This document shows, in pieces, positions 53,588-64,000 of a stretch of DNA of 64,000 bases (position 1 is its first letter; every line of letters starts with the position of its first letter). Both the position numbers and the translations under genes were made by a program. Source of the stretch: Bdellovibrionota bacterium (GTDB taxonomy: Bacteria > Bdellovibrionota > UBA1018 > CAUJDS01); NCBI GenBank assembly GCA_963169695.1, contig CAUJDS010000026.1, positions 2,168 to 66,167 of the forward strand, written 5' to 3'. The notes beneath the pieces are model-generated. The model did not search any database. It saw nothing but the letters and a program-made list of their open reading frames with translations, and was not told where the DNA came from.

Positions 53588-54232
53588 CTAAAACAGTCGC
53601 ATCATCTTGTAAGCGACCAAAGCGCCCATGATTTGTGCGAGAATAAATCCCAAAGATCCTGTCCAGAGTATTCCCGAGAATGTGTCTGTTAGACACCGAG
53701 CCACGGTGACGGCTGGATTGGCGAAGGAAGTGGAAGAAGTAAACCAGTATGCAGCCATGACGTAAGCGGCGATGGCAAACGGGGTTGCGCCTACGTTCTT
53801 TTTTCCAGCAAGTGAAATAACAACAATAAGTCCGAACGTCGCGACTACTTCAGAAAAAATAAAACGGAAGCCGCCTCTATCGCGAGACGAAAATTGGAGG
53901 AGTCTTTGCCCAAACATGGCGTGGGTAACGAACACGCCCACGATAGCGCCAGAAAGCTGCATCATGACGTAACCTAAAAGTTCCTTTATCGTTAGCCTTT
54001 TCCAGAGCCACTCGACAAGACTAACAACCGGATTAAAATGTGCTCCAGATACACCCGAAAAGCATTGAATCAAAGCGTATAGAGCCGCTCCGGTTGCGAT
54101 GGAGTTTGCCAAAAGAGCAATCGCAAGATTGCCTTGTGCAAGAGCCTCCCCCATAATGCAGGAGCCGACTACGGCGATGAGCAATCCAGCCGTACCTATA
54201 AACTCAGCAAGCATTCGCTTTCGCAGGTTCAA
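53588..54232 (-). CDS. MIP-family aquaglyceroporin (AqpS-like arsenite channel)
   Basis: Two half-repeat signatures, HFNPVVS (NPV) and FANPAVTVARC (NPA). Six TM helices. Last gene of the ars operon, with a 4-nt overlap with arsC. Confidence 0.85.
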   Translation of the reverse strand: MNLRKRMLAEFIGTAGLLIAVVGSCIMGEALAQGNLAIALLANSIATGAALYALIQCFSGVSGAHFNPVVSLVEWLWKRLTIKELLGYVMMQLSGAIVGVFVTHAMFGQRLLQFSSRDRGGFRFIFSEVVATFGLIVVISLAGKKNVGATPFAIAAYVMAAYWFTSSTSFANPAVTVARCLTDTFSGILWTGSLGFILAQIMGALVAYKMMRLF

Positions 54233-54645
54233 ACATCGATCTCCGACTTGAATGCATTCAGTCGCTCCGAAATAGCATCCCGGGCAACTCGAAAGCGAGT
54301 GAGAGCTTCAGAATCAGAAGATGTCTCCTTCGTTGCGGGGTCCGTCTGAGGCCAATGGAGCTTCTTCGCTTTGGAAACTAATATGGGACAAACTTCTTCT
54401 GCGCAAAGAGTGATGACGTAGTCCAGGTCAGCAATAAATAGAGGTGAAAGGTCGTCGACGCTCTTCGAATAATGGTGCGAGATGTCTATACCAATCTCTC
54501 CCATAGCTGTGACCGCGTATGGATTCAGTTTTCCGGGATGAGATCCCGCACTTTCAATTTCCGCATTAGGAAATAATTTCTTAGCAAGACCTTCAGCGAG
54601 TTGGCTGCGAGCTGCGTTGGCAACGCAAATGAAGAGTATTTTCAT
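54229..54645 (-). CDS. arsC: Arsenate reductase, LMW-PTPase (thioredoxin-coupled) type
   Basis: P-loop ICVANAARS (Cys7...Arg13-Ser14), downstream Cys81/Cys86 and DYVITLC. Confidence 0.85.
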   Translation of the reverse strand: MKILFICVANAARSQLAEGLAKKLFPNAEIESAGSHPGKLNPYAVTAMGEIGIDISHHYSKSVDDLSPLFIADLDYVITLCAEEVCPILVSKAKKLHWPQTDPATKETSSDSEALTRFRVARDAISERLNAFKSEIDV

Positions 54646-54651
54646 GGCAAA

Positions 54652-55104
54652 CTACCCGCAACAGCTAGATTTGGAGTCATCAGGAGCGCAGCAATCGGAC
54701 TCGCTGTCATCAGTTTTGGATACATCTTTGTTACTGAAAACATCCGCATCAGCCATGCTTTGGTAAGCCTCCCATGGCACTCCCGCCGGGTCGGATACCC
54801 AAGCCTTATTGGAAGTAGCGTAACAGCAGGTCGTTTCACCCTCATCGTAAACCCCTAAATCCGCATTTTTTAGGCGTTCAGTTATTTCGCTCAATTCTGC
54901 GACAGAGTCTACCTGCATGCCAAGGTGGTTGACTCCTACATCATTGGTCCTTGTCGAAATAGCGAAGTTAATGCGCGGATCTTCAAGCATCCACTTGGCA
55001 TAGTCTTCCTTAAGCTTGCTTGGCTGTTGACCAAAGAGCGTAGAATAGAATTGAACAGATTTGTTGATGTCCTTTACGCCGACATGAATATGAAATCGCT
55101 TCAT
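54652..55104 (-). CDS. arsI: ArsI/CadI family VOC metalloenzyme (candidate C-As lyase)
   Basis: MKRFHIHVGV (His5), NHLG (His60), vicinal Cys pair in ETTCCYA (Cys93-94) and PWE (Glu112). These match the ArsI His-His-Glu/Cys-Cys layout (H5, H62, E115, C96-C97 in Bacillus ArsI). There is an extra tail ...SDCCAPDDSKSSCCG. The ATG at 55104 lies 2 nt after the arsR stop. Confidence 0.65.
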   Translation of the reverse strand: MKRFHIHVGVKDINKSVQFYSTLFGQQPSKLKEDYAKWMLEDPRINFAISTRTNDVGVNHLGMQVDSVAELSEITERLKNADLGVYDEGETTCCYATSNKAWVSDPAGVPWEAYQSMADADVFSNKDVSKTDDSESDCCAPDDSKSSCCG

Positions 55105-55106
55105 TA

Positions 55107-55439
55107 CTAACACTTCCTTTTTGGAGTTGAGGCCTTGCTGGACTTAGAGTCTTGTTCACGAACGCAGCAGTTTTCTTTCAGGTAGCCGATCAGCTGCTCG
55201 ATCAAATCGGTATTTGCAAAATAGGTTACTGAGCGGCCACTCTTCTCTGACGTAACAAGTCCTGCCTTGCTCATGTGCGAGAGATGAAAAGAAAGGGTGT
55301 TATCAGGGATCTTCAACTCTTCGGCGATCTTGCCAGGAATGATTCCGTCACTACCGTACTGGATCAGTAGTTTGAAAACCCTAAGTCGTGTTTCCTGCGA
55401 CAGTGAGGAGAAGGCCTCCGAGGCTTCATGCATTTCCAT
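55107..55439 (-). CDS. arsR: ArsR/SmtB family metalloregulator (C-terminal Cys type)
   Basis: wHTH (RLRVFKLL...LSFHLSHMSKAGLV). There is no CVC in helix 3. Cys91-Cys92 and Cys110 lie near the C-terminus, as in the Acidithiobacillus-type ArsR. Confidence 0.8.
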   Translation of the reverse strand: MEMHEASEAFSSLSQETRLRVFKLLIQYGSDGIIPGKIAEELKIPDNTLSFHLSHMSKAGLVTSEKSGRSVTYFANTDLIEQLIGYLKENCCVREQDSKSSKASTPKRKC

Positions 55440-55508
55440 GGTTCCAGAATAATGGAAACAAATTGGAATGTCAATGTTTCGATAAATGGCATTTGGAAAT
55501 CCCGTGGA

Positions 55509-55523
55509 GAATCCAGTCGGCCC
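55509..55523 (+). repeat. Direct repeat copy 4 (15-nt core GAATCCAGTCGGCCC)
   Basis: Exact 15-nt match. It lies between the arsR start region and the stop of the lipoprotein gene, and is a candidate att site at the right edge of the ars segment. Confidence 0.9.
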
Positions 55524-55531
55524 TTTCGAAA

Positions 55532-56293
55532 CTACTTAGATCCCTTCCATTCGAGTTCTACCGGAATGAGATCCTTTTCAAAGCGTGGATCTACATTGAC
55601 TTTAAATGGCTTGAGATAATCAATCGACATCTTACTGCAATACAAAGTCGGGCAAGTGTAAAGTCTATTGGTGGCCGAGTGGTAATCTGAATTGCCTGTA
55701 TTATTAGCATAGGACACACTTCCGGTCGAAATGATGCAGGTAAGGTTTTCGTCCGACTTTAATGGGCTCTTTGATTGGTTTTGCTCCAATTCCAAATGCC
55801 AGAATTTCAGTTTGGTGCCATTTGGAAAAACATCCTTTACTAAAATAAAATCAGGCGTCGTAATTGTTGCCTCAAAGCACTGCTGATTTTTCAGTTCCTT
55901 ACTTTTTCGATCTGCCAAACGTTTTTTAAACTCCGCATTCTTCTTCTCCTCACTCCAGCGCTGCTTATAGCCTTCATCTTCGACTGAATCCCGAGTACTC
56001 GCGATGAGGTAGGGAGGAGTCACTGGTACAAGTTGAATCGACGTTCCACTTGGAATGGTAGTTTTAGTTGAATTCGAAACGGTTCCGCTCGTTTTTTCGT
56101 TCTTCCCTAAATCCCTGGACCTAAGAATATGGACCCTCCGTGAAAGAGCATCACGAATATCAGTTGCTTTGGTTTTAGGATCGGGCTCGCCATCGAGGTA
56201 GGCCTTCGGAGTGGATGCGCTTTGACCACCCCCTAAAGTGGCGCAAGCACTAAGCATAAGTAATGATCCTACCAATACCAAAATTCGTTTCAT
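55532..56293 (-). CDS. Hypothetical lipoprotein
   Basis: The ATG at 56293 gives MKRILVLVGSLLMLSAC with a lipobox (LSAC). I recognise no other motif. Confidence 0.6.
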   Translation of the reverse strand: MKRILVLVGSLLMLSACATLGGGQSASTPKAYLDGEPDPKTKATDIRDALSRRVHILRSRDLGKNEKTSGTVSNSTKTTIPSGTSIQLVPVTPPYLIASTRDSVEDEGYKQRWSEEKKNAEFKKRLADRKSKELKNQQCFEATITTPDFILVKDVFPNGTKLKFWHLELEQNQSKSPLKSDENLTCIISTGSVSYANNTGNSDYHSATNRLYTCPTLYCSKMSIDYLKPFKVNVDPRFEKDLIPVELEWKGSK

Positions 56294-56364
56294 GGAAATG
56301 TCCCTCTTTAATTCAATGATCGAGACTGTGGTACCGTTTGCCCGTGTAAAAAGCAAGAATCAGT

Positions 56365-57816
56365 CTATCGCTTTGCAAATGCTGCCCTACAAGATTCCCT
56401 CGCCTTCAAAGCCGTAATAAAGGAGACGTAGCTCCAAGACAAATGAGAGGCGCCGCGAGACTCTCCTGTACTGCGATCTAGTTGCTCATACATATTGCCG
56501 TCTGATGGCAGGAGGTCCTTTAGCCGGAGTAGAATATGGTCGCCCATTTCAAACAGTGCTCGAGAAACGGCATCTACTGAAAGAATAGGGGTTCTGCCAC
56601 TACCTTGAGAATAACGAAGTGCCCGGCGAACTAGCTGATGACTGGTGATTTCTTGGTTGAAGGGAATGGAAGCAGACTGAAGGTGTCTCGCGAGTTCATA
56701 ATAGTATTCTGCAAGTCCTAGGGTTGTGAGGATCCATGCATGACCTGCACTGAATCCCACTCCATCATAGACATCTTCGGGATAACGTCCTAGGAGGATT
56801 CCTTTTTGTCCGCGGTTTATTTGATAGTGAGTTCGGTAATATTTCACTAGCGAGTTGGCCAAGGTCAGGATCGAAGGATGCGAGATCCTTTCCGAGAAGC
56901 GCGGAGAGCTTCGAGTATGAAGTGCCGCTAGCAGCGACGAGGCATCGAAATTGGACCGCTTATGATCCCATCCTCCTTTTTGGTCTAAGGTAGTGACAAC
57001 CCCTGGACGCTCAACTTTGAGATGCAGAAGAAGCTTTTCTCCTAGTGTGTTGCCCTGTTTTTCGTACCACTCGGCAGCGGCAGTGTCTCCAAGCTGTCTA
57101 GCAAGAGTGGCTCCTTGTTCGAGTGCCGCGCGCTGAACTAAGCGATGGTAGAAGTGATTCCCCATTACCTCTTCCCATGGATCAAAGCTTGGTTCTTCAA
57201 TATGATTGGCTACGTATTCGAGATCCCTCTTGATGGCTGACTCACTTGGTAGCTTCGAATCAAATAGAAATTTCCTAACATAGGTCTCGTCTCCTCGAAG
57301 CATGCAGATGGTGGCCCATCGAATGAGTGTCAATGCGCGAAGCGCTGGGCCATCGTTTTGGGGACGTCCCCAATCTTGATCGAAGGCTTTGCCGGTAGGA
57401 TGAAATTTGGGCTCCCCAAGGCCGCCACTCTTGTTCTGTACGGTCTGGATCACTAGGGTGCTGGTGACGTAGGATTCGAGAATAGCCTTGGCGGTACTTC
57501 GTTCCGTTTCGGTTCCGTCCAAAGACAAGCTTGCCATGACGTCCATGGCAAGAGCGCCATCTCTTACCCAATGGTAGAAATAATCGGGAGCTTCCTTCGA
57601 AGGCGAAGCAACGATAAGCCCGGACTGGGCCCCTTCAAGTTTGGTCGCATTTTCAATGAGGCGCGCCACTGCTATGGTGCGATGCGACTCGAGCCAGTCT
57701 TCTAGGGAGAGCACTTGAGCCTGACAAAATAGTGGCGCTCCCATGGCTGCCAGCGCTAGCAGAACCTCAGGGACGCGTCTTAGAACTTTCAGTGACTTCC
57801 AAGCAATGCTTTTCAA
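56365..57816 (-). CDS. Secreted glycoside hydrolase family 15 (glucoamylase/trehalase-like)
   Basis: Signal peptide and (alpha/alpha)6-barrel-like motifs including YFYHWVRDGAL and GRPQNDGPALRA, typical of GH15. TTG start preceded by GGGAG. Confidence 0.75.
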   Translation of the reverse strand: MKSIAWKSLKVLRRVPEVLLALAAMGAPLFCQAQVLSLEDWLESHRTIAVARLIENATKLEGAQSGLIVASPSKEAPDYFYHWVRDGALAMDVMASLSLDGTETERSTAKAILESYVTSTLVIQTVQNKSGGLGEPKFHPTGKAFDQDWGRPQNDGPALRALTLIRWATICMLRGDETYVRKFLFDSKLPSESAIKRDLEYVANHIEEPSFDPWEEVMGNHFYHRLVQRAALEQGATLARQLGDTAAAEWYEKQGNTLGEKLLLHLKVERPGVVTTLDQKGGWDHKRSNFDASSLLAALHTRSSPRFSERISHPSILTLANSLVKYYRTHYQINRGQKGILLGRYPEDVYDGVGFSAGHAWILTTLGLAEYYYELARHLQSASIPFNQEITSHQLVRRALRYSQGSGRTPILSVDAVSRALFEMGDHILLRLKDLLPSDGNMYEQLDRSTGESRGASHLSWSYVSFITALKARESCRAAFAKR

Positions 57817-57971
57817 GAACTCCCACCCCCTTAGTGCCTACCGAACCTATTTCAAGCCCAAAGGGATGACAAGCAATCCAGATAAATAATCAATGATCGC
57901 AATGCGTTATCACTCATGGCGATAAAGATTTCTTTCAGTAAAGTCGAAAGGTTGAGCACAGGAGACCTGTC

Positions 57972-59681
57972 ATGAGCGTAATGAGCAAGGCTATACGACC
58001 CAAGCGATTTCAACTAAGGAAGCAATCGGGAGTGCGATTCTTTGTCGAATCTCGTACAGGAACGCGGTTTGATCTGCGGCTCGACAATTGTTCCTTAACA
58101 GGACTCGGAGCGACATGTGATGACCCAAAATTAAACCAAACCATTGCCGAAGAACTCGCAGCCAGTGAATTGGTACCTGCCGGAAAAATTTCATGGACGG
58201 ATCACGAATACGCGCTCGGTCGCTTAGTAATTCGTAACATTAAGAAATTAGAATCTGGTGAGGTGTACGTAGCACTTTCTACTGTAGACTCCAAGGTTCC
58301 ACTTGATGGGCCTTTGAGTCAGTTCTTAGAAGTGACGGACTCCAAAGAAATCAATCCCTTTGAATTTGAATTGAGTCCCGAGCGATTCTCACTTGCTGAC
58401 TTTGCAGAAAACCAAGCCATGAATACGGACCTCTTTGCCAAGTGCAAGCAGTACTCCATTTTCTTCAGGGAATGGAAGGATAGTCCCAAATTTTTATACC
58501 ACTCAATACGAGAGCCATCGATGGGCACTCGCGTGCACTTAAAGAAATCTCGAAAAAGTGGCCGTCAAGACTACATCATTATGGGATCTAATGATTACCT
58601 TGGACTTGCTTCTCACCCTAAGGTCATGGAAGCAGCAAAAGCGGCCATCAATCTCTATGGATTTGGTGCAACGGGTTCGCCCTTGACCACGGGAATCTCT
58701 GAAGAGCACGAAAAGCTCTGCGATCAGCTTTCAAGAATCTTTAAGAAAGAGCAGACGATTCTTTTCAATTCTGGGTATGCAGCCAATATTGGAGCGATTC
58801 AAGGAATTACTAGCGGTCAAGACCTCGTAGTATCTGACATGCTCGCACATGCTTCGATTCAAGATGGCATGCAGATGTCGAGGGCAACGTCGCGATTCTT
58901 TAAGCACAATAATATGGCCCACCTTGATAAGGTACTGGCGGAGAATCGATCTCAGTATTCGGGATGTATCGCCATTACAGAGGGCGTATTCTCAATGGAT
59001 GGCGACGTACCTCCATTGCGTGACTTTGTCGACATTGCCAAGAAGCACAAAGCAAGAACCTTCGTGGATGAGGCGCATAGCTTTGGTGTGGTGGGTCCGA
59101 AAGGCTTGGGTGCCTGCGATCAGCATCGAGTCACGGACCGTGTGGATATGGTGATGGGGACCTTCTCGAAGATCGCAGGTGGAATCGGCGGATTTATATC
59201 CACCAGCAAGGATGTTGCCGATTGGCTCTTTATGTTTGCACGGGCACATATGTTTTCGGTTTCCATTCCGCCCTCCACCGCGGCTGCTGCCTATCAAGCG
59301 ATTCAGCTATTTCTGGACGATGCAAGCTTGGTACAGAATCTTCATCGCAATATACACCACTTCGTAAAAGGCCTGAGAGAGTTGGGCTATCCAGTCAAAG
59401 AAAATCACGAGAGTGCCGTAGTACCCGTAGTGATTGGGGATGAAGCCAAGCTCGGCGTGATGAACCAGTACCTTCAAGAAAAGGGAGTATTTGTTGTACC
59501 GATCGTCTATCCGGCCGTAAGTCGAAAAGCGTGTCGCTTTCGCTTTACGGTTACCTCGGGCCATCAGATTTCGGACTTGGACTATGTTCTCAATGTCTTT
59601 GGACAAGCACTAGAAAAAGCTGATGTGCAGTTCGAAGAATTAGACAAAACCAAACTGAAAAATGTGGATAACGCGGCTTAA
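57972..59681 (+). CDS. PilZ-domain / alpha-oxoamine synthase (PLP, BioF/KBL/SPT/CqsA superfamily) fusion protein
   Basis: aa 12-16 RFQLR (RxxxR) and aa 39-44 NCSLTG ((D/N)xSxxG) at canonical PilZ spacing. aa ~195-569 form a full AOS core (SNDYLGL, DEAHSFG, GTFSKIAGGIGGF). AGGAG RBS before the ATG. Confidence 0.8.
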   Translation: MSVMSKAIRPKRFQLRKQSGVRFFVESRTGTRFDLRLDNCSLTGLGATCDDPKLNQTIAEELAASELVPAGKISWTDHEYALGRLVIRNIKKLESGEVYVALSTVDSKVPLDGPLSQFLEVTDSKEINPFEFELSPERFSLADFAENQAMNTDLFAKCKQYSIFFREWKDSPKFLYHSIREPSMGTRVHLKKSRKSGRQDYIIMGSNDYLGLASHPKVMEAAKAAINLYGFGATGSPLTTGISEEHEKLCDQLSRIFKKEQTILFNSGYAANIGAIQGITSGQDLVVSDMLAHASIQDGMQMSRATSRFFKHNNMAHLDKVLAENRSQYSGCIAITEGVFSMDGDVPPLRDFVDIAKKHKARTFVDEAHSFGVVGPKGLGACDQHRVTDRVDMVMGTFSKIAGGIGGFISTSKDVADWLFMFARAHMFSVSIPPSTAAAAYQAIQLFLDDASLVQNLHRNIHHFVKGLRELGYPVKENHESAVVPVVIGDEAKLGVMNQYLQEKGVFVVPIVYPAVSRKACRFRFTVTSGHQISDLDYVLNVFGQALEKADVQFEELDKTKLKNVDNAA

Positions 59682-59698
59682 AGGAGATGTGAAGCTTT

Positions 59699-61558
59699 TT
59701 GGAAGCATTTGCGATTCGGTTTCTTATGGCTATTTCTAGCTTCCTTGGGGTGCAACCTCTTCCAACGGTTCTGTCCAATGGTTGGACTATTTCTCATTCC
59801 TGGCAGCCTTATGAATATGGGTATCAAGCAACGTTGAACTCAGACACGCTCTTGGCGGAGTGTGCTACTCAGCCAGACGCCCACTTTGTTTTTCCTTCCG
59901 TTGTTCACTCCGCGCATCGCCTTTTTGTAGACGGAAAGTTGGCTTTCTCGGAGGGCGATACAGCCTTTAAGAAGGTTCGTTCATTCTATGGAGTCCCTGA
60001 GCTAGCATGTAAGGACCTTCCCGCAGGAAAGATTCTGACCTGGCAAATTTATTCCTATTCGCGATATTTTGCCCGCCTACAGTTTCTTCCGTACCTACAG
60101 AAAGAGCCTTCCCGCGGGAACCTATTCTACGAATCGCTTAATGCCATTGCAGGCGGTACGCTTCTCGTATTGGGTCTGTTCTTCTTGATTATTTTCTACG
60201 GCAAGGTCCAGCGACCTCTGGCGCTTTCTTTCTCGCTTTCGAATTTTCTTTGGTCGGGCTATTTTTTAGGATCCGTCCCGGGCTTCTTCGGCTTTGATCT
60301 TACGATGCTTCAAATGCATCGAATTGCAGATTTTGGAGTTCATTTAGGCACGGTGCTTTTTGCCAATTCCCTTAGGCACGAAGGATTGATTGGATCACGA
60401 ATATTTTGGACCTATCTTACGAGCACCTTCATTGCTTTGGCCATTCTTGTTGTTGGTGCCAGTGGTGACGTCCTTCAGTTTGGAACCACGCTTCCGTTTG
60501 GATTTGCGTTAGCCTTCTTTCTAGTTGCGATTGCGCGCCTCACGCGCGACTCCATTAAAAAGCGATTGACTCGTTCTTCGCTCTTGCAACTTGCCAGTCT
60601 TGGAATTTTTGTAGCTGCCATCGTCAATGATATTCTTTCTATCACGGGTGTCACCAATCGAGTGATGATCTTGTCCTTAGGTGTGGTGGGAGGCTTGCTT
60701 TTCTTTGCTGTGTCTATCAATGAAAAAATCTCTGAGGCTTTCCGCGAGCGCGACTATTTGCGTACGAATCTTGAGACTGAAGTTCAACAGAAGACCAAAG
60801 CACTCACGACGACGCTTTCGGACCTGAAAGCGACCGAGGCTGAATTGATTCAAAGTGCTAAGCTCGCATCCTTGGGTACCTTGGCAGCGGGAATAGCGCA
60901 CGAGATCAATAACTCACTCAACTACGTCAACGGATCAATCAAACCCTTGGAGAAAGAGCTCCAAAAGATTGCCAAGCCAGAGGACATGGGCAAAGTCATC
61001 AAACTATTTACAACGATGAAAGAGGGCTTGAGCCTTACTTTCGACATTATTCGTAGCCTAAAAAATTACACTGGTCTCAACCAAGCCAAGTTCAATGATG
61101 TGGAAGTGCAGACCATTGTGACTTCTGTTATGGCCATTCTACGCAGCCGACTCAAAGAAGGATTTGATCTCCAGGTCAAAATTGAACCAGGACTTAAGCT
61201 CTTTGGAAGTATCGTAGGGCTGAATCAGATCTTTATGAACCTCATCAACAATGCCATCGATGCCATGCCTCAAGGTGGGCGACTCTTGATTGAAGCCTAT
61301 TCGGAGGCCAAGGGTGTGGTGGTCAAAATTTCTGATACCGGATCCGGCATGTCCCCAGAAACCTTAGCGCGCGTATTTGAGCCATTCTTTACGACCAAGG
61401 AAGTTGGAAAAGGTACGGGCCTTGGCCTTCATATCGTCAAGACTGAGTTGGAGCGCCATCACGCAACCATCGCAACTCAATCAGAACCCGGAAGAGGAAC
61501 AGAATTTCTTCTTAAGTTCCCAGGCGAGACCCCATTCTACGAGAAGGAGGCCGCATGA
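59699..61558 (+). CDS. Sensor histidine kinase with extracytoplasmic domain and 7 TM helices (7TMR-DISM-like)
   Basis: ~140-aa N-terminal non-membrane domain, 7 predicted TM helices, H-box AAGIAHEINNSLNYV, N-box NLINNAIDA, G-boxes DTGSGM and GTGLGL. No receiver domain. Start is TTG 59699 (AGGAG upstream) or ATG 59726. Confidence 0.85.
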   Translation: MEAFAIRFLMAISSFLGVQPLPTVLSNGWTISHSWQPYEYGYQATLNSDTLLAECATQPDAHFVFPSVVHSAHRLFVDGKLAFSEGDTAFKKVRSFYGVPELACKDLPAGKILTWQIYSYSRYFARLQFLPYLQKEPSRGNLFYESLNAIAGGTLLVLGLFFLIIFYGKVQRPLALSFSLSNFLWSGYFLGSVPGFFGFDLTMLQMHRIADFGVHLGTVLFANSLRHEGLIGSRIFWTYLTSTFIALAILVVGASGDVLQFGTTLPFGFALAFFLVAIARLTRDSIKKRLTRSSLLQLASLGIFVAAIVNDILSITGVTNRVMILSLGVVGGLLFFAVSINEKISEAFRERDYLRTNLETEVQQKTKALTTTLSDLKATEAELIQSAKLASLGTLAAGIAHEINNSLNYVNGSIKPLEKELQKIAKPEDMGKVIKLFTTMKEGLSLTFDIIRSLKNYTGLNQAKFNDVEVQTIVTSVMAILRSRLKEGFDLQVKIEPGLKLFGSIVGLNQIFMNLINNAIDAMPQGGRLLIEAYSEAKGVVVKISDTGSGMSPETLARVFEPFFTTKEVGKGTGLGLHIVKTELERHHATIATQSEPGRGTEFLLKFPGETPFYEKEAA

Positions 61559-62796
61559 AGCCTATTCTCTACTATGTAGATGACGATGCCCATAACCTCA
61601 CCGTATTTGAAGCTTCCTTGCCGGATGAATGGGAGATCAAAACCTTCTCCAATCCCTTGAAGGCGCTCGAAACTTTAGACAAGGATAAGCCATGGGTCAT
61701 TGTGGCTGACCAGCGCATGCCGGGGATCAAGGGCGTGGACTTTCTTGAGATTGCAAAGAAGCTGACACCTCACTCGGTACGAATCATTGTGACTGGATAT
61801 TCCGATGAGGACTTGGTGATTGAGACCGTTCGCAAGGCTCAGGTCTTTGATTACATTCGCAAGCCTTGGGATACCGATGATCTCGTAGCTCGTATGCAGA
61901 AGGCTGTTGAGTTTTATACGATGAGTCGCGAGAAGGAGAAGCTCTTCGAAACGCTTCTCCAACGTGAAAAGGAATTAAAAACAAAAAACGATGAATTGAC
62001 CACGCTCTCGAAGCAATTAGAGGACTCCAAAAAGCAAGAAGAAGGTATGCGCAAAGAACTTGAATGCTGGGTCCCGCCTTTTGTGCTCCTCGCACTTAAG
62101 GAAAATAAGATTCAGTTTCCGGCCAAGCGAGACTTGGTTTGTGTGACATTTGATATCATCAACAGCAACGAAATCCACGGCACAGAAGTGAATGGCAGGA
62201 CGCTAAGAAGCATAGTGATTCAAAGTTTTTCGGAGTCCATCATTCGCCATGGCGGTTGGCGCGAAAGTCACTCCGGCGACTCCGCCTATGGTCATTTTGG
62301 ACTGATTGATGGAGTAGGAAATCCCTACGAAGCCGCCCTTGCTGTGGCGCGCGAGTTTCGGGTATCGCTGCGAAGTCTTTCTATGGTTCATGATGTACAG
62401 ATCGAATGTGGTATCGCCCTCCATGTGGCCAGGGATTGTACCGTAGATGTACATCAAGTTCAGCTTGTCACTCCTTCTGGCGTCATGACTCAGAAATCCT
62501 TCGATACGACTTCGGTAGGAGTAGATCTCGTCCATCGAATGGAGAAGTTGGTCCACGAATTGAAAGGCACCAACATCATCCTTTCTACAGCGTTCTATGA
62601 TCAGTTAGAGAAGCCACCCAAACAAGCCAACCTGCTTGGTGCTCACCTCTTCAAAGGACAGACCGAAGCCGTGGGTCTGTACTTAATTGCCAGCGACCTC
62701 CTATCGGATGAGGACATCCATGCCTTCGCACAGAAGCTTACTGGCCCGGCAGAAAATGCCGAGGAGTCCGGCGTCGTCGAAAAAAAGGTAGCTTGA
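61555..62796 (+). CDS. Response regulator: REC - coiled coil - class III nucleotidyl cyclase-like domain
   Basis: REC motifs DDD(9-11), D52 (VIVADQRMPG), K103 (IRKPW). aa ~193-378 align by eye with the cyclase homology domain (VTFDI, HGGW..SGDSAYGHFG, CGIALH, VGVDLVHRMEKL, LFKGQTEAVGLYLI). ATGA overlap with the kinase stop. Confidence 0.8.
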   Translation: MKPILYYVDDDAHNLTVFEASLPDEWEIKTFSNPLKALETLDKDKPWVIVADQRMPGIKGVDFLEIAKKLTPHSVRIIVTGYSDEDLVIETVRKAQVFDYIRKPWDTDDLVARMQKAVEFYTMSREKEKLFETLLQREKELKTKNDELTTLSKQLEDSKKQEEGMRKELECWVPPFVLLALKENKIQFPAKRDLVCVTFDIINSNEIHGTEVNGRTLRSIVIQSFSESIIRHGGWRESHSGDSAYGHFGLIDGVGNPYEAALAVAREFRVSLRSLSMVHDVQIECGIALHVARDCTVDVHQVQLVTPSGVMTQKSFDTTSVGVDLVHRMEKLVHELKGTNIILSTAFYDQLEKPPKQANLLGAHLFKGQTEAVGLYLIASDLLSDEDIHAFAQKLTGPAENAEESGVVEKKVA

Positions 62797-62857
62797 TTTC
62801 GACTGAAGCAACTTCTTTGACCCAAGCCAAAAACTCTGTGAGAAACTCAAGGAAGCT

Positions 62858-64000
62858 ATGATTTTATTCAAAAGAAAAGCTTCGCTCAAGAGCTTGGTGA
62901 CTTTGGTGCTTTCTGTGGGCTTGATGGCCCAAGTGGAGGGCCAAAAATTCGAAATCTCAGATGGCGCGCAAATCAATGTGAGAGAAGAGCCCGCCTTCAA
63001 GAAAGCGAAGATACTTTTTGCCGCTCAATCAGGCGACACCGGGATTATCTTGAAAATTGAGGCAAGGGTAGATGGCCGGCAGGCTCTTTATGTAGACTTC
63101 GGCAATGGCAGAAAGGGCTGGATTCTCTATGCCAAACAAAACTGGCTTCTTCTGAAGGACCTTCCCAAAGCAGCGGCTCAACCTGTTGCTGAGGCCCCTT
63201 CCGCTGAAATTGAAAAGGCGACAGAGGCACTCTATGTAAGAGCAAAGAAAAATGGAGTTCCGGTCTATGTGAGTTTATCTAACTTGGAAAGTCCTTATGG
63301 TGGACTTAATGCCGAAGAGAACTATGAGATAGACCAACAAAAATGGGATCCTCAGTCAGATTGGATACCGCTTAAGGCAAAGGGATTGGATGGAAATCCT
63401 GTGACAGCCTATGTGCGAAAGGACGCTGAGATTCTTTCGGGAAAGCTCACTGAAATCCTCAAAGCCCTTTCGGCTAGCCCGGCAGAAACAGCTTGTAAGG
63501 AAGTACCATTGAGCGAAGTTCCAGCAAATCTCGTTTTCGAGGGCTGCCCCGCAGTTCAGGCAGCAGCTCAAGAAGCCCTCAATGAGCGGCTTCAAGCCAA
63601 AAGACCCAGTATGGCAGAAGTACTTAAATCTGACTTAGCTGCATGTGTCCTCGCATCGCAAAAGGACGAAGCCAGCCACTCCTTTCAATATTTGAACTGC
63701 CAAAAAACCAAAAATGGAAAGTGGACTTCATCAAAAAATAAGTCCAACCGACCCTGTGTTTCTCCCCAGGTCACAGCAATTGTGACTGCAGAACTTCAAG
63801 ATACTGCAGACTGTTTCGGAATTTCGGAGGGAGAACTTTTCAATGTTTTTAATCATGAGTCACGACTCATGCCTAACGCGATGAGTGGAACCGGTGCTGC
63901 TGGAGTTGCCCAATTAACGGACATTGCCATAAAGGACGTACTTAATTCGGAAGGAATTGCATCTCGGTCAGTCATTCCTACGAGTACTGGCTATCTAAAA
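62858..64000 (+). CDS. Secreted SH3b-like / SLT-domain lytic transglycosylase (N-terminal 381 codons; runs off the window)
   Basis: ATG 62858 after AAGGAAG. Signal peptide MILFKRKASLKSLVTLVLSVGLMAQV. Open frame to 64000. SLT catalytic motif NHESRLMPNAMSGTGAAGVAQLT near the end. Absent from the ORF track because it has no stop. Confidence 0.65.
   Translation, partial: MILFKRKASLKSLVTLVLSVGLMAQVEGQKFEISDGAQINVREEPAFKKAKILFAAQSGDTGIILKIEARVDGRQALYVDFGNGRKGWILYAKQNWLLLKDLPKAAAQPVAEAPSAEIEKATEALYVRAKKNGVPVYVSLSNLESPYGGLNAEENYEIDQQKWDPQSDWIPLKAKGLDGNPVTAYVRKDAEILSGKLTEILKALSASPAETACKEVPLSEVPANLVFEGCPAVQAAAQEALNERLQAKRPSMAEVLKSDLAACVLASQKDEASHSFQYLNCQKTKNGKWTSSKNKSNRPCVSPQVTAIVTAELQDTADCFGISEGELFNVFNHESRLMPNAMSGTGAAGVAQLTDIAIKDVLNSEGIASRSVIPTSTGYLK

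What the first reader, a model, noticed from the sequence alone, without database searches (positions are those of the whole stretch)
57972..58316. Canonical PilZ signature pair at the extreme N-terminus of a PLP enzyme
Directly readable in the translation: R12-F-Q-L-R16 (nt 58005-58019) and N39-C-S-L-T-G44 (nt 58086-58103). These are RxxxR and (D/N)xSxxG, separated by 22 residues, which is the spacing typical of c-di-GMP-binding PilZ domains.

The following ~70 aa alternate hydrophobic and polar residues, as expected for a beta-barrel. About 80 aa of linker precede the AOS core.

PilZ is usually fused to motility, exopolysaccharide or signalling modules, so fusion to an aminoketone-forming PLP enzyme is unusual.
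Basis: seen in the sequence. Interest (0 to 1): 0.7.

Follow-up and report, generated by a model that had tools for sequence, protein, structure and literature searches.

The report
PilZ-like domain on a PLP synthase

Summary
Both motif strings are at the stated coordinates in ORF 57972-59681 (569 aa). The N-terminal ~120 aa do form a PilZ-type beta-barrel. An AlphaFold2 model built on a 30-sequence alignment has pLDDT 88.9, and its 21 best Foldseek PDB matches are all PilZ domains. The family profile finds only the MrkH PilZ domain in the PDB.

The pair is not canonical, however. In 130 full-length relatives the invariant arginines are R9 and R12, which gives RxxR followed by F/Y-x-hydrophobic. 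R12 corresponds to the last Arg of the canonical RxxxR. [D/N]-h-S-x-x-G (N39, S41, G44) is conserved, as are the family-specific R84 and D106. Pfam's PilZ model misses the domain, and databases name the protein only as an aminotransferase or BioF.

The fusion is specific to this family and widespread in Bdellovibrionota. The gene lies next to a sensor histidine kinase gene in 12 of 13 family members examined. A gene for a receiver-domain protein sits beside that kinase in every locus that extends far enough, and here its output is a divergent class III cyclase domain.

Best reading: a nucleotide-gated (probably c-di-GMP) aminoketone synthase in a Cqs/Lqs-like synthase-sensor module. Ligand and product are inferred, not shown.

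The parts
57960..57964 (+). AGGAG ribosome-binding site, 7 nt upstream of the ATG
   Evidence: Read directly in the sequence.
57972..59681 (+). Whole gene, 569 aa: PilZ-type N-domain, conserved connector and alpha-oxoamine synthase (AOS) core
   Evidence: ORF list. The same gene is called on three metagenome contigs. At least 120 full-length relatives of 540-588 aa were found.
57972..58331 (+). PilZ-type beta-barrel domain, aa 1-120 (strands 13-15, 22-26, 32-40, 44-49, 67-75, 78-92 and 98-104; helices 52-61 and 114-118)
   Evidence: AF2 model pLDDT 88.9. The top 21 Foldseek PDB hits are all PilZ domains. The profile hits only the MrkH PilZ domain, E 0.0045.
57996..58007 (+). R9-P-K-R12, the family-invariant RxxR in the N-terminal loop. 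R12 corresponds to the last Arg of the canonical RxxxR.
   Evidence: R9 and R12 are each present in 129 of 129 aligned members. The alignment to MrkH RRRDPRF puts R9 on R111 and R12 on R114. The Rhxh rule comes from the preprint 10.1101/814665.
58005..58019 (+). R16 is not a conserved Arg.
   Evidence: Position 16 is K in 78, R in 9 and another residue in 43 of 130 members. It lies at or just after strand E13-15 of the model.
58086..58103 (+). N39-C-S-L-T-G44, a genuine [D/N]-h-S-x-x-G motif
   Evidence: Position 39 is N in 78, D in 46 and E in 6 members. Position 40 is C, V, A, L or I. S41 is kept in 128 of 130 and G44 in 128 of 130. The motif is in register with MrkH D-I-S-D-G-G.
58218..58223 (+). 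G83-R84, a family-specific invariant pair in the long strand 78-92
   Evidence: G83 is kept in 129 of 130 and R84 in 129 of 130 members. It is not part of the classical PilZ signature.
58287..58289 (+). D106, a family-specific invariant just after the last barrel strand
   Evidence: Kept in 130 of 130 members.
58368..58403 (+). Conserved connector segment E133-L-S-P-E-R-F-S-L-A-D-F144 between the barrel and the AOS core
   Evidence: F139 is kept in 122 of 130 and F144 in 128 of 130 members. The model gives a short strand at 132-134 and a helix at 141-145.
58431..59630 (+). AOS (BioF/Kbl/SPT/ALAS-type) PLP enzyme core, aa ~154-553, with H293, D366, H369 and K400 (nt 59169-59171) in the family's HASxxDG, DEAH and T-F-S-K motifs
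   Evidence: Pfam Aminotran_1_2, 4e-47. NCBIfam bioF 347, Kbl 320 and SPT ~300 bits, all below the equivalog cut-offs. PDB: KBL 2e-65, SPT 1e-62, CqsA 2e-32. The motifs were located.
59699..61558 (+). Co-encoded sensor histidine kinase, 619 aa. It has an N-terminal extracytoplasmic domain of ~135 aa with two invariant Cys, a multi-pass membrane region and a kinase core. It starts 17 nt after the synthase stop codon.
   Evidence: HATPase_c, 9e-25. Orthologues align over the full length at 28-34% identity. Sensor alignment A4. Adjacency was seen.
61555..62796 (+). Co-encoded response regulator, 413 aa: REC (aa 8-114), a ~70-aa charged connector, and a divergent class III nucleotidyl-cyclase homology domain (aa ~190-380). 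Its start overlaps the kinase stop by 4 nt.
   Evidence: Response_reg, 4e-17. For the C-terminal profile, 10 of 11 PDB hits are class III adenylate cyclases, with CyaB 3r5g at E 0.003. JGI names relatives 'class 3 adenylate cyclase'.

Best explanation
Shown: residues 1-120 are a divergent PilZ-type beta-barrel fused to a complete alpha-oxoamine synthase. AOS enzymes are PLP enzymes that condense an amino acid with an acyl-thioester to give an alpha-aminoketone. The fusion defines a family found in Bdellovibrionota. That family strictly conserves the positions where PilZ domains contact c-di-GMP: the last loop Arg (R12), a second loop Arg one residue closer than usual (R9), and N/D39, S41 and G44. 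It also conserves its own R84 and D106. The gene is the first of a tightly packed set, synthase then membrane sensor kinase then response regulator (REC plus a class III cyclase-like domain here). Kinase adjacency survives changes of flanking genes and of gene order.

Inferred: the barrel is a ligand-sensing regulatory module. Its most likely ligand is c-di-GMP, bound through an atypical RxxR loop. It would allosterically gate the synthase, in the way the PilZ domain of BcsA gates cellulose synthase. The synthase product, an acyl-derived aminoketone or hydroxyketone, would then be the signal read by the co-encoded membrane kinase. This is the logic of CqsA/CqsS and LqsA/LqsS/LqsR, built here from non-orthologous parts.
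For: Fold. The AF2 model of aa 1-173 on alignment A3 has pLDDT 88.9 and pTM 0.76. Foldseek against the PDB gives ranks 1-21 all PilZ domains: MrkH, YcgR, Alg44, 4xrn, PP4397, BcsA and PlzA. Probability is 1.00, and the TM-score normalised to the target is 0.60-0.67 for isolated PilZ domains.

Sequence. Profiles A3 and A6 hit only the MrkH PilZ domain in the PDB below E=0.01, with both motifs in register. PilZ is the only Pfam family touched by more than one of the 30 members scanned.

Conservation. R9, R12, S41, G44, R84 and D106 are essentially invariant in 130 members that share about 20-60% identity. This is the pattern expected for a retained ligand site. PilZ relatives that have lost c-di-GMP binding have lost these motifs (preprint 10.1101/814665). 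One member that has lost the catalytic Lys and the DEAH motif (P0009) still keeps the barrel motifs.

Enzyme. The catalytic H293, D366, H369 and K400 are present, and AOS-family scores are strong.

Module. An orthologous kinase is adjacent in the window, in B. qaytius, in Oligoflexus and in eight other family members. In one of these it is divergently transcribed. A further member has a 7TMR-DISM hybrid kinase 8 nt upstream. Gaps between synthase and kinase range from an 8-nt overlap to 41 nt in the co-directional full-length pairs. Fifteen synthase and regulator clusters share an identical longest-contig length.

Precedent. LqsA/CqsA are PLP-dependent autoinducer synthases that work with cognate membrane kinases, and Lqs signalling is linked to c-di-GMP (PMC10692735). 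c-di-GMP controls the Bdellovibrio lifestyle switches (PMC10211494).
Against: The canonical first Arg of RxxxR is missing: position 8 is hydrophobic in most members (I, M, L, V or A in 123 of 130). From general knowledge of PilZ mutants, which I did not test here, substitutions in this motif are widely used to abolish c-di-GMP binding.

Pfam's PilZ model does not reach significance for any member.

No ligand or docking computation was possible.

The AOS core is closer to KBL, SPT and BioF than to CqsA (225 against 116 bits; the NCBIfam autoinducer-synthase model scores 217 against a cut-off of 428). The kinase sensor region matches no known family, and a comparison with a 7TMR-DISM kinase was negative. 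A Cqs/Lqs-type relationship therefore rests on gene order alone.

One relative, in an Oligoflexales MAG, has a fatty-acyl-AMP ligase-ACP gene downstream and no kinase. That fits a lipid-building role as well as a signalling one.

No GGDEF motif occurs in the 64-kb window.
Confidence: 0.5

Rival explanations
1. The barrel is a PilZ-derived domain that no longer binds c-di-GMP, like PilZN, xPilZ or type II PilZ domains. It would serve as a protein-protein or substrate-handling module, for example docking the synthase to its kinase, to an acyl carrier protein or to the membrane, or controlling dimerisation.
For: The canonical RxxxR is absent from the family, and none of 130 members has RxxxRhxh. 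Pfam PilZ is not significant. PilZ relatives without the motifs are known to act through protein contacts (preprint 10.1101/814665). The conserved connector 133-144 and the invariant R84 and D106 could form an interface rather than a ligand site.
Against: Non-binding PilZ relatives have lost both motifs. Here the [D/N]hSxxG motif and two loop arginines are invariant across members that share only ~20-40% identity in this domain. That pattern is what selection for an anionic small-molecule site would give.
Confidence: 0.22
2. The barrel binds a nucleotide other than c-di-GMP, for instance the product of the co-encoded REC-class III cyclase-like regulator. That would close a feedback loop from sensor to synthase. 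The shortened RxxR loop and the extra R84 and D106 would reflect the different ligand.
For: The loop motif differs systematically from the c-di-GMP consensus, yet it is invariant. In the window's clade the regulator carries a cyclase homology domain that keeps both metal-binding Asp residues. Synthase and regulator co-occur on the same contigs.
Against: To my knowledge no PilZ domain is known to bind a ligand other than c-di-GMP. More distant family members keep the same barrel motifs although their regulator outputs differ: a kinase domain, an unknown domain, or none. The cyclase domain has Asp in place of the transition-state Asn and may be inactive.
Confidence: 0.1
3. The enzyme makes a structural lipid precursor, such as a sphingoid base or another aminolipid. 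The neighbouring two-component system would then regulate envelope composition rather than sense the product. This reading is compatible with any role for the barrel.
For: The AOS core scores as well against serine palmitoyltransferases as against KBL or BioF. The Oligoflexales relative is followed by a FAAL-ACP fusion and an AcrB-type exporter. From general knowledge, not tested here, acyl-ACP-supplying genes sit beside bacterial sphingolipid SPT genes.
Against: The kinase is tightly packed against the synthase in 12 of 13 family members examined, including on apparently mobile DNA. This is typical of synthase-receptor pairs, not of housekeeping lipid genes. No other lipid-pathway genes are conserved around it.
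Confidence: 0.3
4. The two strings are chance matches in an unstructured N-terminal extension, and no PilZ-like domain is present.
For: The regex pair is expected about 0.5 times by chance across the window's ORFs. Pfam finds nothing in aa 1-193.
Against: There is a confident barrel model with exclusively PilZ top hits, profile hits to PilZ only, and a conserved family of at least 130 members.
Confidence: 0.02

Closest known systems
Canonical PilZ domain c-di-GMP receptors (Pfam PF07238: YcgR, MrkH, Alg44, PP4397, PlzA)
   Same: The same beta-barrel fold. The [D/N]-h-S-x-x-G motif sits at the same place. An Arg followed by h-x-h opens the first strand, and an Arg-rich loop precedes it.
   Different: The loop motif is RxxR, with a hydrophobic residue where the first canonical Arg should be. 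There are family-specific invariants R84 and D106 and a helix inserted at 52-61. The domain scores below Pfam's threshold. It sits at the extreme N-terminus of a PLP enzyme rather than on motility, exopolysaccharide or signalling modules.
BcsA cellulose synthase (PilZ domain fused to an enzyme and gating its activity)
   Same: A PilZ-type barrel is covalently attached to a biosynthetic enzyme. The BcsA PilZ domain is among the structural matches (4p00, 9fnn). This is the model for 'second messenger gates catalysis'.
   Different: In BcsA the PilZ domain is C-terminal and canonical and the enzyme is a membrane glycosyltransferase. Here the domain is N-terminal and non-canonical and the enzyme is a soluble PLP-dependent, dimer-type enzyme. 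Gating here is inferred only.
CqsA/CqsS (Vibrio) and LqsA/LqsS/LqsR (Legionella) alpha-hydroxyketone quorum-sensing systems
   Same: An AOS-family PLP enzyme is encoded with a membrane sensor kinase and a response regulator. In Legionella the circuit is linked to c-di-GMP (PMC10692735).
   Different: The synthase is not of the CqsA/LqsA clade (217 bits against a cut-off of 428; CqsA is only the 43rd-45th PDB hit). CqsA and LqsA have no PilZ-like domain. The kinase has a ~135-aa extracytoplasmic domain plus membrane helices of an unclassified family. The regulator output here is a class III cyclase-like domain. The product is unknown.
BioF, Kbl and bacterial serine palmitoyltransferase (stand-alone AOS enzymes)
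   Same: The catalytic core and motifs are the same. The best sequence matches are KBL 7v58 at 2e-65, SPT 3a2b at 1e-62 and BioF at about 1e-58.
   Different: No equivalog cut-off is reached. There is a 150-aa N-terminal PilZ-type extension. The gene context is two-component signalling rather than biotin, threonine or sphingolipid genes.

Membership tests
PilZ domain (PF07238, canonical c-di-GMP receptor) | Six- to seven-stranded beta-barrel with the PilZ topology | tested here: met
   AF2 model pLDDT 88.9. Foldseek PDB ranks 1-21 are all PilZ domains, probability 1.00, TM-score to target 0.60-0.67 for isolated domains.
PilZ domain (PF07238, canonical c-di-GMP receptor) | RxxxR motif in the loop preceding strand 1 (RxxxRhxh) | tested here: not met
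   The family has h-R9-x-[KR]-R12-[FY]-x-h. The canonical first-Arg position (8) is I, M, L, V or A in 123 of 130 members. RxxxRhxh is found in 0 of 130. The window's own R12xxxR16 is a minority coincidence, since R16 is Arg in only 9 of 130.
PilZ domain (PF07238, canonical c-di-GMP receptor) | [D/N]-h-S-x-x-G motif | tested here: met
   N39-C-S41-L-T-G44. In 130 members position 39 is N, D or E in all, S41 is kept in 128 and G44 in 128. The motif is in register with MrkH.
PilZ domain (PF07238, canonical c-di-GMP receptor) | Significant match to the Pfam model (gathering score) | tested here: not met
   No hit at E<=10 for the window protein. Four of 30 relatives hit, best E 0.017. Precomputed Pfam lists no PilZ for any of the 120 relatives.
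PilZ domain (PF07238, canonical c-di-GMP receptor) | Binds c-di-GMP | not testable with these tools
   Needs a binding assay or ligand co-folding. Only conservation of the contact positions argues for it.
Alpha-oxoamine synthase family (BioF/Kbl/SPT/ALAS/CqsA; fold-type I PLP) | Aminotran_1_2 core with the PLP-binding Lys and the His/Asp/His triad | tested here: met
   PF00155, 4e-47. The motifs HAS (H293), DEAH (D366, H369) and T-F-S-K400 are present. There are 50 PDB AOS hits at E<1e-20.
BioF, Kbl or SPT (specific enzymes) | NCBIfam equivalog cut-off reached | tested here: not met
   bioF 347 against 426; Kbl 320 against 460; SPT 300 against 640 and 297 against 500.
CqsA/LqsA alpha-hydroxyketone autoinducer synthases | Membership of the CqsA/LqsA clade (NF005526) | tested here: not met
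   217 bits against a cut-off of 428. CqsA structures score 116 bits against 225 for KBL.
CqsA/LqsA alpha-hydroxyketone autoinducer synthases | Synthase gene clustered with a cognate membrane sensor kinase (and regulator) | tested here: met
   A kinase is adjacent in 12 of 13 family members examined.
CqsA/LqsA alpha-hydroxyketone autoinducer synthases | Produces a diffusible hydroxyketone or aminoketone sensed by that kinase | not testable with these tools
   Requires product chemistry and reporter assays.
Class III nucleotidyl cyclase (output domain of the co-encoded regulator) | Cyclase homology domain with two metal-binding Asp and the Asn/Arg transition-state pair | tested here: inconclusive
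   For profile A8, 10 of 11 PDB hits are class III adenylate cyclases, best E 0.003, covering profile positions 26-212. Both Asp residues are invariant and the Arg is kept, but the Asn is replaced by an invariant Asp. Pfam Guanylate_cyc is touched by 1 of 27 members at E 0.14.

The most novel reading that the evidence does not exclude
In predatory and related Bdellovibrionota, a second messenger directly gates a PLP-dependent synthase through an atypical RxxR PilZ barrel. The messenger would be c-di-GMP or the product of the co-encoded REC-cyclase. The synthase would make a so far unknown aminoketone- or hydroxyketone-type signal, which is read by a new family of membrane kinases. [quoted passage not shown]
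Probability: 0.3. Interest if true: 0.8.

Novelty: new variant of a known kind. Interest (0 to 1): 0.62.

Why it matters
Three reasons.

1. Receptor catalogues. PilZ receptors are catalogued mainly with the Pfam model and the RxxxR/[D/N]xSxxG rule. This family passes the fold test and the second motif but fails both cataloguing criteria, so it is invisible to current c-di-GMP receptor censuses. If it binds c-di-GMP, it widens the accepted binding signature. As far as I could find, it would also be the first PilZ-type domain described on a PLP-dependent aminoketone synthase.

2. A testable circuit. The conserved synthase-kinase-regulator set is a concrete candidate for chemical signalling in Bdellovibrionota, where c-di-GMP is already known to drive lifestyle switches. 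The culturable Bdellovibrio qaytius (CP025734, locus CIK05_08470) carries the set.

3. Annotation. Databases call these genes BioF or glycine C-acetyltransferase, which is probably misleading.

Tried and rejected
- Single-sequence Pfam and PDB searches of aa 1-188 found nothing.
- The first word-indexed homologue search with the N-terminus alone returned one fragment. That wrongly suggested extreme rarity. The exhaustive profile search and the full-length search corrected this.
- A single-sequence AF2 run of the full protein was useless, with pLDDT 35. It also used one of the two structure jobs, so no full-length or dimer model on an alignment could be made.
The two-sequence alignment found one Oligoflexales MAG.
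- I tested whether the kinase sensor region is 7TMR-DISM. Pfam gave only 2 of 8 members at E 0.36, and hhalign against a true 7TMR-DISM kinase was negative, so I rejected it as unproven.
- A two-sequence profile of the regulator's C-terminus found nothing meaningful in the PDB. Only the 13-sequence profile revealed the class III cyclase similarity.
- No riboswitch or other Rfam family lies in 55000-64000. Promoter and terminator scans were at background.
- No GGDEF or HD-GYP motif was found in window ORFs.
- Literature searches for PilZ with AOS, CqsA or SPT, and for Bdellovibrio with AOS, found nothing relevant.
- The Bdellovibrio c-di-GMP capture-proteomics paper (Rotem et al. 2016, PMC4686195) is not held. 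I could not check whether an orthologue was pulled down.
Full report
**1. What is at the coordinates**

The ORF 57972-59681 (+) encodes 569 aa. An AGGAG lies 7 nt before the ATG.

As bare strings they are weak evidence. The regex pair appears in 0.5% of shuffles of the first 120 residues and in 1.5% of shuffles of the whole protein. That amounts to roughly half an occurrence expected over all ORFs of the window.

Pfam finds only Aminotran_1_2 (aa 200-542, 4e-47) and no PilZ at E<=10. NCBIfam places the C-terminal 400 aa in the alpha-oxoamine synthase (AOS) family: bioF 347 bits, Kbl 320, SPT about 300, ALAS 273 and the CqsA/LqsA type 217. No equivalog cut-off is reached. The catalytic motifs HAS (H293), DEAH (D366, H369) and T-F-S-K (K400) are intact.

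**2. Is the N-terminus a PilZ domain?**

An exhaustive profile search of 1.84 billion cluster representatives with the N-terminal region found 37 clusters. The complete ones are all 544-570 aa, so they have the same architecture.

A 30-sequence alignment of the N-terminal region (A3) gave three independent results.
- Against all PDB sequences, the only hits below E=0.01 are four entries of the Klebsiella MrkH PilZ domain (E 0.0045). Both motifs are in register: family R9 and R12 fall on the last two Arg of MrkH RRRDPRF, and N39, S41 and G44 fall on D-I-S-D-G-G (repeated with a barrel-only 38-sequence profile).
- PilZ is the only Pfam family touched by more than one member, though weakly (4 of 30, best E 0.017).
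- AlphaFold2 on this alignment gives a confident model (pLDDT 88.9, pTM 0.76). It has seven strands between residues 13 and 104.

Foldseek against the PDB returns PilZ domains at ranks 1-21: MrkH, YcgR, Alg44, 4xrn, PP4397, BcsA and PlzA. Probability is 1.00 and E runs from 1.6e-4 to 3e-3. The TM-score normalised to the target is 0.60-0.67 for isolated PilZ domains. The fold assignment is therefore solid.

**3. Are the motifs canonical?**

They are not. In 130 full-length family members:
- R9 and R12 are invariant (129 of 129 aligned).
- Position 8 is I, M, L, V or A in 123 of 130, and position 11 is K or R in 109.
- Position 13 is F or Y in 127, and position 15 is hydrophobic.

Galperin and Chou describe the canonical pattern as RxxxRhxh and [D/N]hSxxG (preprint 10.1101/814665). 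R12-F-Q-L is the 'Rhxh' element, so R12 is the last Arg of the canonical motif. The canonical first Arg would be residue 8, which is Ile here. The family motif is therefore h-R-x-[KR]-R-[FY]-x-h, that is RxxR.

RxxxR occurs anywhere in the first 22 residues in only 20 of 130 members, and RxxxRhxh in none. The second motif is genuine: position 39 is N in 78, D in 46 and E in 6; position 40 is C, V, A, L or I; S41 is kept in 128 and G44 in 128.

G83-R84 (129 of 130) and D106 (130 of 130) are additional family-specific invariants. Residues 133-144 (ELSPERFSLADF), between the barrel and the AOS core, are also conserved. The AOS fold begins near residue 155, so the 'linker' is about 35 aa and is not free.

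**4. Spread and annotation**

The full-length search lists at least 120 clusters at 90% identity. They are 540-588 aa (two partial sequences of ~473 aa apart), share 46-61% identity with the window protein and, apart from those two partials, cover at least 93% of it.

Source names place them in Bdellovibrionota: Bdellovibrio sp. qaytius, Pseudobdellovibrionaceae, Bdellovibrionales, Oligoflexus and Oligoflexales. They are annotated as 'aminotransferase class I/II-fold', '8-amino-7-oxononanoate synthase' or 'glycine C-acetyltransferase', and none has a precomputed PilZ assignment.

The only match among the GTDB species-representative genomes scanned with two peptide patterns taken from the window and P0001 was an Oligoflexales MAG at 40% identity. 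The window's own species was not found by that scan. I found no paper on this architecture.

**5. Gene neighbourhood**

In the window the synthase is followed after 17 nt by a 619-aa membrane histidine kinase. After a 4-nt overlap comes a 413-aa response regulator.

The same synthase-kinase order, with different flanking genes, occurs around these relatives:
- P0006
- P0021
- P0014
- P0033
- P0029
- Bdellovibrio qaytius
- an Oligoflexus MAG

Truncated contigs of P0003 and P0023 show the kinase start downstream. Around P0016 the kinase and regulator genes are transcribed divergently from the synthase. P0010 has a bona fide 7TMR-DISM hybrid kinase 8 nt upstream. Only the Oligoflexales MAG lacks a kinase. 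It has a fatty-acyl-AMP ligase-ACP fusion downstream instead.

The kinases are orthologous over their full length at 28-34% identity. They share an extracytoplasmic domain of about 135 aa with invariant W29, W35, C55, P66, C104 and P131, followed by membrane helices. This sensor region matches no Pfam or NCBIfam model, and hhalign against the 7TMR-DISM kinase was negative.

The regulator's receiver domain is of the RpfG/HupR type. Its C-terminal 230 aa are a divergent class III nucleotidyl-cyclase homology domain. A 13-sequence profile finds almost only class III adenylate cyclases in the PDB: CyaB 3r5g at E 0.003, then bPAC and CyaC, 10 of 11 hits in all. The two metal-binding Asp residues are invariant, but the catalytic Asn is replaced by Asp. 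JGI names relatives 'class 3 adenylate cyclase'.

Fifteen synthase clusters and regulator clusters share the same longest-contig length, which is independent support for co-location. In more distant members the regulator output differs: a kinase domain, an unknown domain, or none. The conserved core of the module is therefore synthase, kinase and receiver.

**6. How it most likely works**

Shown:
- a PilZ-fold barrel with a conserved, arginine-rich, PilZ-like site;
- an intact AOS enzyme;
- a conserved, tightly packed synthase-kinase-regulator set.

Inferred:
- The barrel binds an anionic small molecule. c-di-GMP is the most likely candidate, given the fold, the in-register motifs and the importance of c-di-GMP in Bdellovibrio (PMC10211494).
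- The barrel gates the synthase, by analogy with BcsA.
- The aminoketone product, or a hydroxyketone derived from it, is the cue for the adjacent kinase. This is the logic of CqsA/CqsS and LqsA/LqsS/LqsR (PMC10692735).

The missing canonical first Arg is the main reason for caution about c-di-GMP. The absence of orthology to Cqs/Lqs parts is the main reason for caution about the signalling reading.

The rivals are set out in the rival-explanations section:
- a non-binding interaction domain;
- a different nucleotide ligand, possibly the product of the regulator's cyclase domain;
- a structural-lipid role for the enzyme;
- chance, which is refuted.

**7. Verdict**

This is a non-canonical, Pfam-invisible PilZ-type domain with an RxxR loop. 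It defines a Bdellovibrionota-specific family of N-terminally extended AOS enzymes embedded in a two-component module.

It is a new variant of known kinds (PilZ receptor, AOS enzyme, synthase-sensor pair) rather than a new category. It is directly testable, because a cultured organism carries it.

Noticed in passing
window 61555-62796 (aa ~190-380 of the regulator): The response regulator downstream has an output domain that no Pfam model detects. A family profile matches it almost only to class III adenylate cyclases (CyaB, bPAC, CyaC). Both metal-binding Asp residues are invariant, but the transition-state Asn is replaced by an invariant Asp, so its activity and product are open.
   Followed up: partly
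window 59699-60808 (aa 1-370 of the kinase): The kinase sensor region is an unclassified family. It has an extracytoplasmic domain of ~135 aa with invariant W29, W35, C55, P66, C104 and P131 (possibly a disulfide), followed by several membrane helices. It resembles 7TMR-DISM in layout, but no homology could be shown.
   Followed up: partly
L004 5062-8988 (Oligoflexales MAG JBGSUI010000075.1): This relative of the fused synthase (40% identity in the N-domain) is followed by a FAAL-ACP fusion (AMP-binding plus PP-binding, 726 aa) and an AcrB-type exporter on the opposite strand, not by a kinase. This hints that the acyl donor is a long-chain acyl-ACP.
   Followed up: partly
P0009 (557 aa, family member): This member has lost the catalytic Lys (T-F-S-K becomes S-L-N-L) and the DEAH motif (now CEGY). 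It still keeps R9, R12 and N-A-S-L-F-G in the barrel. It is a possible pseudoenzyme that retains the sensing domain.
   Followed up: no
L014 4987-7794 and L016 1-5553 and 12642-13604: In two distant relatives the synthase-kinase-regulator set lies next to mobile-element genes. One has a resolvase and a DDE transposase. The other has T2SSE, TraG/TrwB-type coupling protein, ArdA and an integrase. The module may move horizontally.
   Followed up: no
window 53588-55439, minus strand: This looks like an arsenic-resistance operon: ArsR-type HTH regulator (55107-55439), glyoxalase-fold protein with a Cys-rich C-terminal tail (54652-55113), low-molecular-weight phosphatase/ArsC-type protein (54229-54645) and a MIP aquaglyceroporin (53588-54232). 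The Pfam labels come from the identical metagenome contig L001.
   Followed up: no
window 56365-57816, minus strand, and 55532-56356, minus strand: Divergently transcribed from the synthase gene are a secreted GH15 glucoamylase-type enzyme (483 aa) and, downstream of it, a 274-aa (253 aa as called on L001) putative lipoprotein with no family match. Neither is conserved next to the synthase in other loci.
   Followed up: no
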